64,000 nt of DNA from Cladosporium halotolerans (taxonomy: Eukaryota). Both the position numbers and the translations under genes were made by a program. The DNA is taken from NCBI RefSeq assembly GCF_011745625.1, contig NW_027191457.1:558001-622000 (forward strand), given 5' to 3'. Below are positions 45,719 through 54,599 of this stretch, piece by piece (the first letter of the stretch is position 1; each line of letters opens with the position of its first letter). The notes beneath the pieces were generated by a model. That model worked only from the letters and a program-made list of their open reading frames with translations, was not told the DNA's origin and made no database searches.

Positions 45719-47467
45719 ATGAGTGCCGCCGAAGTAGACGTCAAGGATGCGCCGCTGGGCAAGGAGCAGCCGCTCCCGGAGTCCGCGCCGCAGGAACTGA
45801 AGGATGTCGCTAAAAATGCCAACCCTATGCCCGGCAAAGAGAACCAGGGCCAGAAGAAGCCCCAAAGGCCAGGCATGAACCGATTCACCACCTCCAAAGA
45901 AAACGTCCTGTCCACGTTCTTCATCGGCGCAATTGACCAGGGCACCACCAGCACACGATTTATCATTTTCGACGGCGTGGGCCAGCCCGTAGCAAGCCAC
46001 CAGCACGAATTCAAGCAGCACTACCCCGAATCCGGCTGGCACGAGCACGACCCGCAAGAACTCCTGGCCAGTTTGGACCAGTGCATTGAGAAGGCCACCA
46101 CCACTTTCATTGATCTCGGTCACAATGTGAAAGACATCAGAGCAATTGGTCTGACCAACCAGAGAGAAACGGCCCTTGTGTGGGATGCCGAGACCGGCGA
46201 AGCCCTGCACCCCGCTATCGCATGGCCCGATACCAGGACGAAGGCGATGGTCCGTGACTACAAAGAGAAGGAGGATGCAGAGGGACTCGACTTGCAGCAG
46301 CTGACCGGTCTGCCACTGTCGACATACTCATCGTCGGTTAAGCTGGTCTGGCTCCTCGAGAACGTCCCTAGGGTGAAGGAGGCTTACGACGCTGGCCGTC
46401 TGGCTTTCGGCACCGTGGATACCTGGTTGCTGTTCCACCTGAACGGCGGTCTGAAGGGCCAGTACTTCGTCACAGACTCGACGAACGCGTCGCGTACGGG
46501 TTTCATGAACCTGCACACCCTGAAGTACGACGACAAGCTGCTCAGCTTCTTTGGGCTGGACCGTGAGAAGCTGCACTTGCCTCAGATCGTGCCGTCGTCA
46601 GACGCAAAGGCCTACGGCGCCGTCACCAAGGGCTTGTGCAAGGGCATCAAGATCGCAGGATGTCTCGGTGACCAGTCCGCTGCGCTGGTCGGTCAGCAAG
46701 GTTTCACTCCCGGCTCTGCGAAGAACACCTACGGTACAGGATGCTTCATGTTGTACAACGTGGGTGAGAAGCCCGTCATCAGTCACCACGGTCTGCTCGC
46801 GACTGTCGCATACGACTTTGGCGGCAAGCGCAAGCCTGCGTACGCTCTGGAAGGCTCTGTCGCTGTCGCCGGCTCTGGTGTGAAGTTCCTCATGAACAAC
46901 ATGGGTTTCATCACGCACTCGCACAAGATCTCCGACCTCGCCGCCACAGTCGAGGACAACGGCGGCTGCGTCTTCGTCACGGCTTTCTCCGGTCTCTTCG
47001 CCCCCTACTGGATCGATGACGCCAAGGGAACCATCTTCGGTATCACCCAGCACACGCAGCGTGGTCACATTGCCCGCGCAACCCTGGAAGCGACGTGCTT
47101 CCAGACCAGAGCCATTCTCAACGCCATGGAGAAGGATTCCGGTCACGCACTGTCCGCACTCGCTGTCGACGGCGGCATGTCCAACTCCGGCCTGTGCATG
47201 CAGACGCAAGCGAACATCATCGGCATCCCCGTCGACCGCCCGTCCATGGCTGAGACAACAGCGCTGGGCGCCGCCATCGCGGCCGGCTTCGCCGTCGGCA
47301 TCTGGAAGGAGTTCGACGAACTCAAGGCCATCAACCAGAAGGACCGCCAGATCTTCAAGCCCGCCGTGTCCAAGGAGGAGAGCGAGAAGATGTTCGCCAA
47401 GTGGGAGCGCGCCGTCAGGATGTGCAAGGGCTGGCTGGATCCGCAGGAGGAGCGCACCGACAACTGA
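45719..47467 (+). CDS. GUT1: Glycerol kinase (FGGY family)
   Basis: Motifs GAIDQGTTSTR, GLTNQRET, GDQSAALVGQ, AKNTYGTGCF, AFSGLFAPYW, VDGGM and ETTALGAA. Single exon. Confidence 0.96.
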   Translation: MSAAEVDVKDAPLGKEQPLPESAPQELKDVAKNANPMPGKENQGQKKPQRPGMNRFTTSKENVLSTFFIGAIDQGTTSTRFIIFDGVGQPVASHQHEFKQHYPESGWHEHDPQELLASLDQCIEKATTTFIDLGHNVKDIRAIGLTNQRETALVWDAETGEALHPAIAWPDTRTKAMVRDYKEKEDAEGLDLQQLTGLPLSTYSSSVKLVWLLENVPRVKEAYDAGRLAFGTVDTWLLFHLNGGLKGQYFVTDSTNASRTGFMNLHTLKYDDKLLSFFGLDREKLHLPQIVPSSDAKAYGAVTKGLCKGIKIAGCLGDQSAALVGQQGFTPGSAKNTYGTGCFMLYNVGEKPVISHHGLLATVAYDFGGKRKPAYALEGSVAVAGSGVKFLMNNMGFITHSHKISDLAATVEDNGGCVFVTAFSGLFAPYWIDDAKGTIFGITQHTQRGHIARATLEATCFQTRAILNAMEKDSGHALSALAVDGGMSNSGLCMQTQANIIGIPVDRPSMAETTALGAAIAAGFAVGIWKEFDELKAINQKDRQIFKPAVSKEESEKMFAKWERAVRMCKGWLDPQEERTDN

Positions 47468-50400
47468 GGGCTGTCTGTCTCTATCTTCCGCTCCTCCGGT
47501 TTCTTCCCTTCCCTCCCTCTTTCTCTCAACATCCCTACCTTCCATCTCCACACCCGGCCGCGATATTCGGCCGACGGGTTTTTCTGACGAGTCGACGTAG
47601 TTAATAATATCCCATGAGCATCCCGCAGACCCCCCATCGAACTAGCATCCTCTCTCGAAATGAATCGATCTAATCACTTCACTTCCGCCTATCCCACGGA
47701 ATTTACCTAGGTAGCCCTGAGTGGAGCGCGGGACGTCATTTCCATCTATCTCCATAACGGGCTGATCCCCAACGCGGCCAAGCGTCCGGCTCAGTCATCC
47801 ATATAGTTTCACTTCGAACACCATGCTTGATCCGGCGAAGCAGCCGGCTCCGCCATCTAGTCTGCCTCTGTTCTCATAGCACCTGCCACGATCGTCGCGT
47901 CTTCAACGCCGCAGCGCGGCCCTGTCCCTCCTTCGGGGAAGCATTCCGCCACCACCGCCAGCACACACTTACGGTAGGCCGTCTCATTCCCAAACCCGCA
48001 GTGTCAAAATCCCGCACATCGAGCCCTCCTCGGCGACCCAACGCACGCGCGCAGACACGAGCGAACGCTCGGCCAGCCGGTCAGTCACATCACGAACAGC
48101 AGTCTCTCCTCCCTCACCGGCGCCGTAACCCATTGGTCGCCGCCGCCGGAGAAGGCACAGTCACGCTAGCTCCGCGCCGCCCACCGCACGCGAAATGCAC
48201 CTTCAGGCGTCGCAGCGCAGCAGCGAACCCTACGCCGGCATGGACATGGGGCGGGCGCCCGCCCACGTGCACGCTGCGTGCCCGGCAATATATCCCACGC
48301 GAACTCCCCGCCGGGCGCGCGGGTTTGTCAGCGAAGAATAATGGCGCGCGTGCAGGCGGGACGTCTGGTCTAGTTTGCTTTGCGATTGCTGCTCCGGGAT
48401 TTGGCGACGTTGGGGCGAAGGAATGGAAGGGAGGTGTTGTCTATTCGAGACGGCTCGGACGCGTGCCGGCCTGCTGATTTGCCCGCCCTGCAGGGTTTGG
48501 TAAGCTAGGGCTGGATTAGCTACTGCTGCTGCTGCTGCGCTGTGCGTAGACGCTGTATGTACGGTCGTATACTCGAGACGACTGACAGGATGCCGCTGGG
48601 TGCGGAAAACGTGCCCTCAACCGTCACCGTCGGCCTGCGCCACGCGAGGCGCGGGTCGGGGCTGATACTGTTTGTGCTGGTGCGTATGTGACTAATGTAC
48701 ATACTCTACGAGCAGGCGTGTGTCGTGTGAGTGGAGAGAAAATATAGCCCTCCCTCTCCCGGGACCGCTGCGGTTGTGTGCCTGTGTCACCATGGACACT
48801 GGATGTCGTGGGACCTCGCGCGAATGTCTATCTCTCACGTACTGTGGGTACGTAGGCGGTGTGTGCGCCCGTGGAAGAGTCGTGCCACGAGAATGGCTTG
48901 GGGATTAGACGGTTCATGAAGGGCCGCGCAGGCTGGGCCAGGCCATGCGATGCCATGCACCGTTGATCTGTGCTGTCTTCGTCCTGTCAATCCTGCGCGG
49001 GGCTTCCTGACCGCCCTGTCAGAGCTCGGCGCTTGTAGCCCTCGTGGTGCAGCTATGCAGAATACCTTCGACAGCGGCATTCGACGGCGTGTGGGCGCGC
49101 ACGCCCGCTTCTTCCAGGTTCCTCCCTCCACTCCATATCTTTTGCCTTGGTCGTTATTTGGTTTGGCTTTCAATCGCGGCCGTTCGTTCCCCGCTAGAAA
49201 GCGTTCGCCGCGCAAGCCACGCACAACGGCTGCCGGAACCCGGGGCCCAGAACTGTGGGTGGGCCCAAAAGCGCGTCTTGGTTTCACTTCGAATCCGAAA
49301 ACCACATAGCGACAACGGGAGGTGGAGGGAGCCGTGGCATTGTCGCCGCCACAACATACTACCTAAGCAGGCCGGATACCAGCAGCCGCACGATCCGAAC
49401 GGTCGAATGGCCGCGCAGACACCGCTGTCACACCCCATCTAGTCTATGCCGAGAGCTGCGGCGTGCGCTGCAGACACACGCGCGCACACACACGGCCATG
49501 CAGCCATCGCCAGTCGGCCGCCACTACTGGCGCCTTCGCCCAGCTGCACGCACAAAGACATGCAACCCCTCTCGTCCCCCTCCCTCGGCCGGGCTGGCAC
49601 TGGCCTTCTGCTGACACAAGCCGATGGATGCCGGCGCCGGTGCCGGGGTGCTGGACACCCGCCGACCGTTTGACAGGCCATGGGTGCGTGCGGTGCGGCC
49701 TGCGTAGTGGCTGGCCTTGACCTGCGGGCGAGCGACGGCTGCTGCTGTTCCCTGCGGCCCTGCTCGCCTGTCGACGCGGTGGCTCACGCCCACGGGCTTG
49801 GGGGCCTCATCCATGCCTCGCCGCGCGCGCTGCTGAGTGCTGAGCGCGCCCCTCCCGTTCGCCCTCGACACTACCGTCCTGTCTCAGCCCACCACCGTCT
49901 CCTCTCTCACATGTCCGGCGCGCGATGGCGGTGCCCGGCGGTGCCAGTCAGCGGCCATCGCTCAGTAATAATAAGCGTAAGTACAGTGCCGCTTTGCTCC
50001 TCATCTGAACTCGGCGTCCGTGTGTCCTTCTCCTCCCGTTCGCTTCGTTGCTGCCCTTCGTTTCATCCTCCACGGCATACTGGACATGTCGCAGCCCTCG
50101 CCCTAGATACCGCGTCTGCTATTTAGCGGCGAATGAAAGGCCGCCAATTTCTGCCAATGCAACCTTTCCATCGCCTACCAGCCACCTTTCGGCCGGACCG
50201 TACGAGCCAGCACCGCGGTGGATCTGCCAGGCCGTTTCGCGTCGATCCGCACTGCCGGGGCAATCTTCACCTCCAGAGGACCAGCCCGGACGTTCCCTCG
50301 GTATCGCTGAACAATGCGCCACGGCCGCCGCCAGTCACATCCTCAAACTCGTTCGCGGCGACGACCGAGAACGCCCTCGTCCAGTGAAAGAGCGGTGGCC

Positions 50401-50932
50401 GCACGCTCGCGGTCCCCAAATGACCTATCGTCAAACCCGTGGAAATCCGACCCTCGTCCAACCACCATCACGAAAACGGAAACAGCATTTCAATATAACG
50501 AGCATCAATCCCAAACACGCCTCGGCGACCCGCCCGCCGCGGGCCGTCGTCTAGGCCCTGCGTACAGTACATCGCCGTACCACACTTCCAAGGGTTCAGA
50601 CTGCCGGGCGACATCAAACGGCGCCCGATTCCCACGCCCTGCACGGCCGTTACGTCGGCTGCCGGCATAACATCTCGCCCTGCACAGTTCCCGCACCACC
50701 TGACTTGTCCAGGTTCCTAGCAGGATTCCCTGACACCTCCCGGGCCTGCGAACTGTTTCGGCACTCCTGCCCTAGCCTTAGACCTCTGAGTCCGGAAGTG
50801 CACAAAGAGCGAGGCAATTCCCGGACGATCGAGCTGGGAAACTTTCTTGTTTGTCCAAGCTCCATTGTTTATCCAGTATCACTTGCCTGCTTTGCTATTC
50901 GATTGAAGATTCCGTGAAGAAAGACGTCGATA

Positions 50933-51310
50933 ATGTGCGATTACACCCAAGTCGAGTATGCTTGTGGGCATCTGCGGTTCACTGTTAGGGCTTGGTGTAA
51001 GTTGGCATCTCGGCGGGAGGCTCGACTAGACGTATCGTCAACTGGCAATTGATTGCTGATCAACTCGGTTCCAGGCATCAAGTACCAAGAGACGCACAAA
51101 CGATGCCCTCCTAATGTCGTCGCCATCGAGTACAGGCTTAATGAGAAGTGCGGTAGGTCATCCTCACGTCACCGCGTACCATCTCATGCACCCAAGGCTA
51201 ACCGTTCACCACCAGGCGACTGCAGGGACTCGACGTCACCTTTTGCATCGAAGAAGAAATCAAGCTCGAGCTCCAAATCCTCATCTGGCGCCGACGCGCC
51301 GAGGAAGTAG
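50933..51310 (+). CDS. 78-aa Cys/His-rich microprotein of unknown function (putative zinc-binding)
   Basis: Exons 50933-50996, 51075-51152 and 51216-51310. Introns GTAAGT...GCTGAT...CAG and GTAGGT...GCTAAC...CAG. Product MCDYTQVEYACGHLRFTVRAWCIKYQETHKRCPPNVVAIEYRLNEKCGDCRDSTSPFASKKKSSSSSKSSSGADAPRK. Confidence 0.8.
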
Positions 51311-54026
51311 GCCTCGCTTTCCGAGCCCGACTCACAAACGATCAACGGCCCCGTGAACGACCCTACAACAAACGACATTTCTACGCACCATAACGACCAG
51401 CATCGATACCCCATCTTCAGCTCTGCTCCAACGACCAAACAACTAGCATAATCGCACGCAAAACCGCCCGCGTCTTAATCCCAAACCAGCCAAATTCCTC
51501 CCCCGCGCTGGTCGCGGGAGATTGATGAACGAGGCGCGCAAGGACTTTCCCCTCCCCCGACATCAGCACGCAATGCCATCTTCGCCCAACGTCGCACTTC
51601 CCCGATTCTGCCATCCCTGTTCCACGCGCTTATGCCGTCGGCCGGCCGAGTCGCAGCGCGAACACTCGACGCCTGACGTCCACGGTGGCGGGAGCCTGGT
51701 GCTTCCCGAATGCGCGGGAGCCGGGGTGCGCAGGTAGGGCTCCAGGATCTTCCAGTCGGCACTTATTAACGTTGCCCTCTCTTGCGCCATCACGCCCGCT
51801 TTAGCATTTAACCAAACACTGATCAACCTCACTGCTTTCCAGCGCTTCAACAGCCGCGATGCATCATCTTTGCTTCTTCGGCCGAATCCATCGACCACGA
51901 CTTCGCGCCACGCTAGAACCCCCCAACTGCCTACAAGGTATCAACCCCGCACGACCAAGCGACCAGCATCCCATCCCATCCCGCGCCCACCAAAACAAGG
52001 GCCCCCACACCATCCACCTCACCAACCACAAAGCCACCACCCGGCGCCCTGCAGCAGCTCTCGCCTGCACCCAATCTCCCCCAAACGCCCACCTGCAACC
52101 CGCCGCGCCCTCCCACCCCACGCCGGCGTCCATTCGCACGTCGCACAAAAAAACCGCAACCCCGATCTGGGAACCGCACGACAGCCCAGTGCTTTTCACT
52201 CGCTTGCTTGCTTGTTCGAAGGAGCGGCGCCGACCGAGAAGCACGTGGCGTGTGGGCCTCGCTTGATCTATCCGCGACTGACGAACTGCGCGGACGGCCC
52301 GAATGGGGCAGTTCTGCGCGCCAGTAGCGCTTCATCGATTTGTGCGTGCTACGGCGCGCTGCGCGCGCGAGAGAGATTGATTGGTTGATTGATTGATCTA
52401 TAGAGACGGAGGAAGTGCAAAGGCCGGGCATCGGCGTCCGAGGGCGGGCTTTCTCGGCGCCGTGAGGGATTCGAGAGTCGAGGCTCATTATTATCAGAAA
52501 GGGCGCTGGGCCAGTCCGAGGCATCGATAGAGGAAAGCGCATCGCATACATGGTCGTCCGTGAGGTCTGACCAGGTGCTAGCAGGCATTCGTGGGCTTCT
52601 GGGAGACGCGAGGAGGGGCCAAGACAGAGCAGAGATAGAGGGCGCGGACTGCAATTTCGAATCTACATACTATCTCCCTCCTCCGTTCGGCGTTCTCCAC
52701 AGTCGTGGCAGGCTGCAAGCACGTTGTTAGGAGAGCAGCACGTACAACCTTGGCCTCTCACAAGAGCGCGATACCAGACGCAGCCTTCCACAACAGGAGC
52801 GGCAGTCCGGCGCAGTGCAGGCGGCTATCGCGGTCTTGCAAGATCGCGAGGCTTGCCGGGGTCGTTCACGTACATAGAGTCCAATCAATCGATCAATATA
52901 TCAACGGGTGGTGAAACGTCACGTTGGATTGTACCTAGGAATGCGTCAGCTAGGCGAGGGAGTCGGTCCGTGGAGGAATTGAGTGATTGATCAACCGCTG
53001 GGTTATCGCAGTCAATAAACAGTCCCGCCTAGTGAAACGTGACGTCACATGGAGCCACGACTAAGCATCAATTCCATCAACCAGGCACACGCCGCTCTGA
53101 CCTTTGATTTTTGATTGTATTGAGGGAGGAGGGATAGTCAGACGAGCGGATCGACAACACCGTCGGAAATCGCAACGTCGCCCTGAAACCCCTCCTCCTC
53201 CTCTCCTCTCTCCCTTCCATCCCATGCTCCTGAACCTTCAACCCTGTATCGCCCACCACCGCCGACGAGGACGCGCCACGAACCCAGTTGGCCTCGCACC
53301 ACAGCACCACACATACTCATCACATCACAGCAGAACCCGAAATCAGAAAAATTAAAAAAGATATTGTACGCTCAAGATCCATTTCATTCGAACATCTCCG
53401 TTCCCACCTCCAATACTTATTTATTTATTTCTTCCCCCCCCCCGATATCATCCCAGCACAGACCAGACCAGACCAGTGCGTCTAGCCACCTTCCTCCCTC
53501 TCTCCCTCGCTTCCTCCCCACGCGCGCAACCCCAGTTCCAAAAAAGGTCAATTCGCCTCCCCTACCCCAAGGCCATCGCTCCCCCTTCTCCCGCGCGCGC
53601 GCGCGCGCCTCCCAAAGGGGATATTGAAGTTTTTTTCATTGATCTCGTCAGTCAACAGGAAAAGAAAGGAAAGGAAAACAGATAATATGAGCCTGGTGAG
53701 CTACTTGGGAAAGCAAAAAAAATCAAGCAAAATGAGCAGACTCCGGTCCGTGTCAGAGGAAGCAGAAGACAGAAGACAGAAAACACTAGATGAGAGATTC
53801 GCCGTGATCGCCGGGTGCCCGTGGCGAGATGAGAGATAGTTAAGCAAGAGAGAGTCGAGCCCGAACAGAGAAGATGCCGAAAGAGATCGCAAGTGAGGTG
53901 TTTTTGTGGAGACCGCTCCGGGGCGCCGATGAGGTTCGGGTTCGGGTCCGAAGGGGTTGAGTTGAGTAAAAGAGGGAGCATGATCGGAGCAGGGTTGGGT
54001 GAGTGGTGACAAAGAGGATCGGGTTC

Positions 54027-54073
54027 GAGAGTGAGAGTGAGTGAGTGAGAGTGAGTGAGTGAGGGAGGGAGGG
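54027..54073 (+). repeat. (GAGT/GAGA/GAGG)n microsatellite in the probable CDC24 3' UTR
   Basis: gagagtgagagtgagtgagtgagagtgagtgagtgagggagggaggg. Confidence 0.7.
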
Positions 54074-54599
54074 TTTGTGGGTCTTTCCCGTGCTCGAGTC
54101 GTGTCGGTTCGGGAAACCCTCTGTTGTTTGGTTCGTGATATTCCGCGGTCTTTGCTGCCGCTCTCTGTTCTGCTTCTGCTTCTTCGCGCTTCGTTCCTTC
54201 TGTCGTTATAGCTTCGCGGTAATGATGTGCCGTCGACGAGCAAACAAGCAAGCACGCATTCCGTGGCCGTCTATGATATGGTTGTGATGAATGCAGCATT
54301 TGCAAATAGATATGACTTTGCGACTGCCGTTCGTCTCGTCTCGTGTCGTGAGGTAGATGTCGCTGCTTCGCTAGAAGGCCGTTATTGTGCTGATGATCTG
54401 TATCGTTGGAGCGCGCGTGGGTCGGGCCCTAGATGATGAAGCCTGCGAAAGACCACCCTTTTCACCGAGCATTTGCGCGGCAGATTGTGGTCCTCGTCCA
54501 AAGCGAGTCTCGGCGCGATAAGGCCGGCTCGTAAATCGTGATAGCACTCGCGAGCGCTTCTGTCCGACTGAGTTCCTTTCTCAAAGACGCGGGCGGACC

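What the first reader, a model, noticed from the sequence alone, without database searches (positions are those of the whole stretch)
50933..51310. Hidden three-exon 78-aa Cys/His microprotein
Seen: invisible as a whole in the ORF track, but two introns with consensus signals join a compact product with C2, C11, H13, C22, H29, C32, C47 and C50 (M-C-x8-C-G-H...C...H-x2-C...C-x2-C), a basic Ser-rich tail (SKKKSSSSSK) and no signal peptide. The N-terminus resembles unannotated small fungal MC...CGH proteins as I recall them; this is not verified. Inference: an intracellular, possibly nuclear, zinc-binding regulator of undescribed function, with up to eight ligands for two metal ions.
Basis: partly seen in the sequence, partly recalled or inferred. 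Interest (0 to 1): 0.72.

Follow-up and report, generated by a model that had tools for sequence, protein, structure and literature searches.

The report
Conserved fungal Met-Cys zinc-type microprotein
This is a real, spliced mould gene for a 78-residue protein whose 50-residue core, with seven fixed cysteine/histidine residues, is strongly conserved across filamentous ascomycetes and probably holds two zinc ions, yet it matches no named family or solved structure and its job is unknown.

Summary
The gene is real. Both GT..AG introns are cut out at the stated positions in contigs of two studies and the first in a third. The 50-residue core is under strong purifying selection (median dN/dS 0.05, 45 pairs). 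Homologues occur in Dothideo-, Leotio-, Sordario- and Eurotiomycetes, all named 'hypothetical'. No Pfam, NCBIfam, PDB or fold match was found. Seven ligands are fixed (C2, C11, H13, C22, C32, C47, C50); H29 is not (247 of 302), so the eight-ligand model needs amending. A confident model of a homologue (pLDDT about 90, residues 1-50) gives hairpin-helix-strand, which puts C11/H13/C47/C50 at one end and C2/C22/C32 at the other. Because Met-Cys is fixed at the start, I infer that the freed alpha-amine of Cys2, or H29 where present, completes the second site. The basic tail is not conserved and is no canonical NLS. Best guess: a non-enzymatic, zinc-braced protein-binding regulator; zinc, location and partner are untested. 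Glycerol kinase lies upstream in 14 of 17 Dothideomycete-type loci and 0 of 13 Leotiomycete-type loci. Undescribed family, moderate interest; this scan has met the superfamily before.

The parts
50933..50996 (+). Coding exon 1 (M1 to the first base of the C22 codon; C2, C11, H13)
   Evidence: homologues
50997..51074 (+). Intron 1, 78 nt, GT..AG, branch-like site at 51056, one in-frame TGA; position (CDS nt 64) shared by 5 of 52 distinct relatives
51075..51152 (+). Coding exon 2 (C22, H29, C32, C47)
51153..51215 (+). Intron 2, 63 nt, GT..AG, branch site at 51198, no in-frame stop; splits the CxxC; position (CDS nt 142) shared by 37 of 52 distinct relatives
51216..51310 (+). Coding exon 3 (C50, basic Ser-rich tail, stop)
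49799..50932 (+). Upstream stretch held in the same spliced contig as the gene (X17 from 49799, X1 from 50043): probable long 5' leader with 5 to 8 upstream ATGs; contigs cannot fix the start
51311..51640 (+). Probable 3' untranslated part (end of the X17 spliced contig; the X1 contig runs further)
49591..49657 (.). Non-coding block kept (78-79% over about 72 nt) in the three closest loci L014, L017, L019
50596..50682 (.). Second non-coding block, inside the leader, kept (75-77% over 88 nt) in the same three loci
45719..47467 (+). Neighbour: glycerol-kinase-type FGGY kinase, same strand, 3.5 kb upstream; linkage conserved in Dothideomycete-type loci

Best explanation
A slowly evolving member of an unnamed Pezizomycotina Met-Cys family. 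The spliced mRNA (shown) encodes a 78-aa intracellular protein (translation not shown; inferred from selection). Residues 1-50 fold into a three-stranded sheet with a short helix (predicted on a homologue); the tail is disordered. One metal site, C11/H13/C47/C50, clamps the hairpin turn to the closing CxxC; a second, C2/C22/C32 plus a fourth ligand, clamps the other end (inferred from topology). The fourth ligand is most likely the alpha-amine of Cys2 after removal of Met1, with H29 as an alternative or second-shell residue (inferred). The metal is most likely zinc (about 0.8). So braced, the sheet shows a conserved surface (Y4, R15, V18, W21, Y25, T28, R31, E40) that binds a conserved protein partner: a non-enzymatic regulatory subunit or adaptor (inferred, about 0.5 given the rest).
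For: Splicing. Selection: median dN/dS 0.05 over the 45 pairs with pS 0.05-0.6 among 54 sequences; window against L014 pS 0.73, pN 0.017; the 4 coding differences listed for run X1 are all synonymous (40 of 76 difference rows were shown). Ligands: C2 277/279, C11 285/286, H13 279/286, C22 288/304, C32 300/303, C47 186/190; C50 in 50 of 52 distinct gene models. The same seven, without H29, align in a distant intronless ORF of the same genome (hhalign probability 90). Model: strands 2-9, 14-20, 34-42, helix 23-28, pLDDT 86-91 for residues 1-50. Top covarying pairs 3-35, 8-41, 20-37, 10-46 fit this arrangement (effective number of sequences only 29). Met is position 1 in 276 of 279, and 46 of 52 gene models have no in-frame ATG upstream before a stop. 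Many non-ligand surface residues are near-invariant, more than a metal store would need. Removal of Met before Cys by methionine aminopeptidase is established knowledge (recalled).
Against: No metal, protein, location, phenotype or partner data at all. H29 is still the majority residue and forms an HxxC with C32, so it may be the fourth ligand in most members. 3 of 52 models have a second ATG just before the start and 3 one 44-70 codons up, which would block a free Cys2 amine if used; N-terminal acetylation could do the same. C50 is present in only 94 of 135 database stretches, which I put down to missed third exons. My gene models were profile-guided and required M-C-x8-C-x-H, so those counts are partly circular. 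The conserved aromatic and basic residues fit nucleic-acid binding as well.
Confidence: 0.45

Rival explanations
1. Same two-zinc fold, but the ligand is nucleic acid or the ribosome: a small basic zinc-ribbon RNA/DNA-binding factor.
For: pI 9.15; conserved Y4, W21, Y25, R15, R31, R42; 73 of 78 tails net basic; the weak fold rows are dominated by one small bacterial ribosomal chain, which I recognise from memory as bL31 (Z 2.0-2.7).
Against: The core is only mildly basic (8 K/R against 6 D/E); the fold rows are at noise level (rmsd 3-8 A, 9-18% identity); the tail is not conserved and has no canonical NLS.
Confidence: 0.2
2. A metal or redox sensor: the three-Cys site with its N-terminal cysteine is open or labile, and loss of metal or oxidation of Cys2 changes the fold or the half-life.
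For: Only three fixed side-chain ligands at the second site; fixed Met-Cys start; long leader with upstream ATGs; weak Foldseek rows to Fur/PerR zinc-site domains (E 0.4-0.9).
Against: No PCO/ADO-type N-terminal cysteine oxidase (PF07847) found in this genome (the search is exon by exon and the genome may be incomplete). Upstream ORF positions are not kept among the five relatives looked at. The Fur rows are not significant.
Confidence: 0.15
3. One reading: eight side-chain ligands, with H29 completing a C2/C22/H29/C32 site; members with Q, N, Y, G or E at 29 make do with water, the amine or a partner. This concerns the structure and is compatible with any of the functions.
For: H29 in 247 of 302 stretches and 46 of 52 models; HxxC spacing; lies at the right end of the sheet.
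Against: Replaced on several separate branches, including syntenic copies (the tree is poorly resolved), and absent from the distant relative that keeps the other seven.
Confidence: 0.3
4. A partner or co-regulated gene of glycerol kinase, acting in glycerol or osmolyte metabolism.
For: Glycerol kinase upstream on the same strand in 14 of 17 loci (11 of 14 distinct genes) of the intron-64/116 type with 3 kb or more of flank; one database record (P0250) reads from a glycerol kinase C-terminus straight into a family member about 40 codons later.
Against: 0 of 13 loci of the intron-125 type, which groups with Hyaloscypha and Botrytis; the genome's second copy has no such neighbour in the ORFs read; shared ancestry alone can keep neighbours; the gene has its own transcript.
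Confidence: 0.08
5. The Cys/His set binds an iron-sulphur cluster or copper rather than zinc (small carrier or chaperone).
For: Six cysteines in a protein with no signal peptide; sequence alone cannot tell the metal.
Against: No CxxCxxC or other ferredoxin-type spacing; no family or fold match to Fe-S or copper proteins; CxH plus CxxC is a usual zinc set (recalled).
Confidence: 0.07

Closest known systems
Uncharacterised Pezizomycotina proteins: N. crassa Q7S297/EAA29502, S. macrospora SMAC_05652, B. cinerea BCIN_05g02180, P. fijiensis MYCFIDRAFT_152346, C. fusiforme Q7P37_008041, T. thermophilus VTN02DRAFT_5641
   Same: Same family: Met-Cys start, ligand spacing, W21, Y25, E40; often the intron inside the CxxC.
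   Different: None has a name or function. Tails differ: Ser/Lys-rich here, a P-x-W motif in 45 of 78 full-length ones. Many database models lack the last exon (71 stop matching after C47, 78 reach C50).
Wider Met-Cys superfamily M-C-x8-C-x-H..C..C..CxxC (e.g. G000:C24:578429; earlier scan notes)
   Same: Seven ligands at the same spacing.
   Different: This branch is far more conserved in its non-ligand residues and is intron-split; the C24 ORF is intronless and 27% identical.
Ribosomal protein bL31 zinc ribbon (chain identity recalled, not given by the tool)
   Same: Hairpin with a Cx[CH] turn, third strand, closing CxxC; commonest weak fold row.
   Different: Z at most 2.7; no sequence similarity; one metal site only; no helix-borne second site.
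Fur/PerR C-terminal domain with its Zn(Cys)4 site
   Same: Hairpin-helix-strand closed by CxxC; weak Foldseek rows, E 0.39-0.94.
   Different: Not significant, rmsd above 8 A, not among the VIA-align rows; no DNA-binding domain here.
Churchill (recalled: Met-Cys start, exposed single sheet, several zinc ions, protein-binding rather than DNA-binding)
   Same: General design only, from memory.
   Different: No sequence or fold hit in any call; different size and ligand pattern.

Membership tests
Unnamed Pezizomycotina MCDYT-type family | Significant sequence similarity over the 50-residue core | tested here: met
   43 of 43 candidates at E <= 0.01 with the intron-bearing read-through; core 98% identical to L017
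Unnamed Pezizomycotina MCDYT-type family | Seven fixed ligands and Met-Cys start | tested here: met
Unnamed Pezizomycotina MCDYT-type family | Intron inside the closing CxxC (CDS nt 142) | tested here: met
   window; 37 of 52 distinct relatives
Two-zinc Cys/His finger (general class) | Eight conserved side-chain ligands | tested here: not met
   seven fixed; H29 in 247 of 302
Two-zinc Cys/His finger (general class) | Ligands gather in two spatial clusters | tested here: inconclusive
   inferred from secondary structure and weak covariation; no coordinates to measure
Two-zinc Cys/His finger (general class) | Zinc bound | not testable with these tools
   needs metal analysis
Any Pfam or NCBIfam family | Score above the curated cut-off | tested here: not met
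   Pfam: 0 of 3 window pieces; 21 members, best E 0.086; 0 of 7. NCBIfam: best E 0.06, 13 bits against a cut-off of 101
bL31-type zinc ribbon | Structural match | tested here: inconclusive
   Z 2.0-2.7, Foldseek E 0.42 at best
bL31-type zinc ribbon | Sequence match to solved members | tested here: not met
   no such row at E <= 10
C1, RING, PHD, LIM, FYVE fingers | Profile match | tested here: not met
   no Pfam row for these
C1, RING, PHD, LIM, FYVE fingers | Structural match | tested here: inconclusive
   not listed; an unlisted family is not excluded
Secreted cysteine-rich protein or effector | N-terminal signal peptide | tested here: not met
   no hydrophobic stretch; Met-Cys is the start; crude test, no dedicated predictor
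Cys/N-degron substrate | Met-Cys N-terminus | tested here: met
Cys/N-degron substrate | PCO/ADO oxidase in the host | tested here: inconclusive
   no PF07847 match in G000; introns or gaps could hide it

The most novel reading that the evidence does not exclude
An unclassified two-zinc finger in which the protein's own N-terminal cysteine grips the second zinc by both amine and thiol, so that N-terminal processing (Met removal, acetylation, oxidation) switches the fold; this slowly evolving branch is a core regulator shared by most filamentous ascomycetes and the prototype of a large Met-Cys superfamily that annotation has left unnamed.
Probability: 0.25. Interest if true: 0.78.

Novelty: new variant of a known kind. 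Interest (0 to 1): 0.5.

Why it matters
A 50-residue module that has hardly changed across four classes of filamentous ascomycetes must do something these fungi need, yet it has no name, family model, structure or paper that I could find. It is tiny, soluble-looking and present in Neurospora crassa, so it is directly testable. It is also the most conserved handle on a wider Met-Cys superfamily that this scan has met several times, and a solved structure could add a zinc-finger class. The limit: nothing here shows what it does, and the genes already stand in databases as hypothetical.

Tried and rejected
Homodimer plus zinc prediction: no verdict (0.38 against a control at 0.19); not used as evidence. 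First structure run on 20 sequences failed (pLDDT 49). Fold searches: 0 matches at E <= 0.001 in PDB and BFVD, 0 at Z >= 5 among 48,161 representatives and among 392 Foldseek rows; the whole 78-residue model was used, tail included, and absence does not show a new fold. PDB sequence searches: none, chance rows only. ESM Atlas: three unnamed Ascomycota clusters, no named one. Papers: four peptide motifs, locus tags from the calls, topic searches and partly guessed tags gave nothing on this family; I saw search listings only, read no paper, and supplements, where such tags would stand, were not searched. The N. crassa NCU number was not found. Chance ORF: rejected by splicing and selection. Upstream-ORF of another gene: rejected, the X17 spliced contig holds no longer downstream ORF. 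Secreted effector: rejected. Conserved uORF: positions not kept in five relatives. Own-genome rows C601 (E 0.23) and C227 (E 0.014) rejected as chance; P0183 rejected as a repeat artefact. Cdc24 linkage: 1 of 80 loci (L020), most with too little flank to tell. Tree: 51 columns, 9 of 54 branches well supported, used only for the intron-125 group. Fused longer forms were not searched with the 'longer' option; one search had no length limit and its best 150 showed none beyond read-through artefacts. One search was uninformative.

Full report
Observation. Both introns are GT..AG with branch-like sites. Of four runs laid, X17 and X1 show both joints and X8, the only one on record as RNA, shows the first and does not reach the second; X15, from the same sample as X17, is one unspliced contig and may be the window's source. 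X1 is another strain (95-99% alike) from another study; its four listed coding differences are all synonymous (36 of 76 difference rows were not shown). An in-frame stop six codons upstream and an unbroken leader in X17 fix Met1 as the start. Translation itself is not shown.

Family. Searches found 43, 185 and, without a word index, 320 clusters at E <= 0.001. Named sources cover Dothideomycetes, Leotiomycetes, Sordariomycetes (Neurospora Q7S297, Sordaria SMAC_05652) and Eurotiomycetes (Thermoascus), all as hypothetical or uncharacterised. Pfam, NCBIfam, PDB sequences and the named Atlas clusters gave nothing. Eight paper searches gave nothing on it (listings only).

Conservation. Over 320 aligned stretches, redundant ones included: C2 277/279, C11 285/286, H13 279/286, C22 288/304, C32 300/303, C47 186/190, C50 94/135, H29 247/302. 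The low C50 count goes with database models that miss the last exon. From 80 metagenome loci I built spliced models, dropped six low-scoring ones and collapsed the rest to 52 distinct genes: C50 stands in 50, C47 in 51, H29 in 46 with Q in 6. These models were profile-guided, so the counts are partly circular; the shared intron position is the independent part: CDS nt 142 in 37 of 52, nt 64 in 5. Median dN/dS is 0.05 over 45 unsaturated pairs, range 0-0.32. H29 is Q in three glycerol-kinase-linked loci, in the genome's paralogue and in a distant intronless ORF that keeps the other seven ligands. So the family has seven fixed ligands, not eight.

Structure. AlphaFold2 on homologue P0010 with 119 sequences gave pLDDT 86-91 for residues 1-50 and about 50 for the tail: strands 2-9, 14-20, 34-42 and a helix 23-28. 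Whichever way the third strand packs, C11/H13 at the hairpin turn lie at the same end as C47/C50, and C2, C22, H29 and C32 at the other. The top covarying pairs agree but are weak. No solved or viral fold matched significantly; the commonest weak row is a small ribosomal chain that I recall as bL31. I had no coordinates, so distances were not measured.

How it most likely works. Shown: gene, splicing, selection, seven fixed ligands. Predicted: the fold. Inferred: two zinc sites, one C3H and one of three cysteines plus a fourth ligand. The cysteine sits at position 2 in nearly every member and 46 of 52 models have no upstream in-frame ATG; methionine is normally removed before cysteine (recalled). 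The simplest reason to fix a cysteine there is that its amine is used, so I favour the Cys2 amine over H29, with H29 a live alternative (0.3). The three models with an ATG directly before the start have an A at -3 for the second ATG, as the window has, so they need not contradict this. Function is the weakest step. There is no catalytic fold, no signal peptide, and many near-invariant residues that are not ligands, which points to a binding surface for a conserved partner. I put a zinc-braced protein-binding regulator at 0.45, nucleic-acid or ribosome binding at 0.2, a metal or redox sensor at 0.15. Nuclear location is neither supported nor excluded; a 9-kDa protein needs no signal.

Surroundings. 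A glycerol-kinase-type gene lies 3.5 kb upstream on the same strand and a Cdc24-type PH/PB1 gene 3.3 kb downstream on the other. The kinase is upstream in 14 of 17 intron-64/116-type loci with 3 kb or more of flank (11 of 14 distinct genes) and 0 of 13 intron-125-type loci, which group with Hyaloscypha and Botrytis (99/97). This is old microsynteny; it does not show a shared function. The spliced contigs begin 890-1134 nt before the ATG, with five to eight upstream ATGs whose places are not kept in relatives. The genome has a second copy at G000:C527:18576 with the same two intron positions, 12 differences in the first 54 residues and saturated synonymous sites; its ATG directly abuts a truncated polyketide synthase fragment, so it may lack a promoter; its expression was not tested.

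Earlier notes of this scan describe similar Met-Cys, seven-ligand proteins in other genomes. They are unchecked AI notes, I could not compare their sequences, and I count them as leads only; they lower the surprise rather than add support.

Verdict. Observation confirmed; interpretation partly supported, with the ligand count corrected and the nuclear claim left open. An undescribed, deeply conserved family of probable two-zinc microproteins: new variant of a known kind, interest 0.5.

Noticed in passing
G000:C527:18576-18860 (L004 1501-1790; L007 6902-9644): Second copy of the gene (65 aa, H29Q, same intron positions) whose ATG directly follows a truncated SAT-KS polyketide synthase fragment in another frame; looks like a rearrangement breakpoint in a patchwork region.
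   Followed up: partly
G000:C24:578429-578690 (L005 1501 on): Intronless distant Met-Cys ORF with the same seven ligands and a Gly/Arg-rich tail; no Pfam match; expression not tested.
   Followed up: partly
window 51725-52800 and beyond: Covered by contigs of both intron-less runs (X17 a separate contig; X1 joined to the spliced gene, reaching about 250 nt past 52800) with no evident coding gene: a non-coding transcript, a long 3' end, or the far 3' end of the Cdc24-type gene. Strand unknown.
   Followed up: no
window 50997-51074 and 51153-51215: Both introns are multiples of three. Run X1 has an intron-1-retaining contig (depth 34 against 107 spliced; may be pre-mRNA or DNA), which would stop at codon 40. 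Retention of intron 2 would put 21 residues into the CxxC without a stop.
   Followed up: partly
protein P0250 (Logan, 111 contigs): One called frame runs from a glycerol kinase C-terminus into a Thermoascus-like family member only about 40 codons later: the two genes may be almost abutting in that lineage; may be a gene-calling artefact.
   Followed up: no
database homologues: Several species hold two to five copies (Mytilinidion, Pyrenochaeta, Lasiosphaeria, Phialocephala, Acephala), and 71 database models stop matching after C47, most likely because the short last exon was missed.
   Followed up: partly
L026, L027, L075, L076, L092 (5-6 kb upstream of the gene): A DUF3429 gene lies upstream of the glycerol kinase in five loci, extending the conserved block; the window was not checked for it.
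   Followed up: no
window 53180-53600 and 53650-54100: A pyrimidine-rich stretch followed by a purine-rich, repeat-rich stretch between this gene and the Cdc24-type gene.
   Followed up: no
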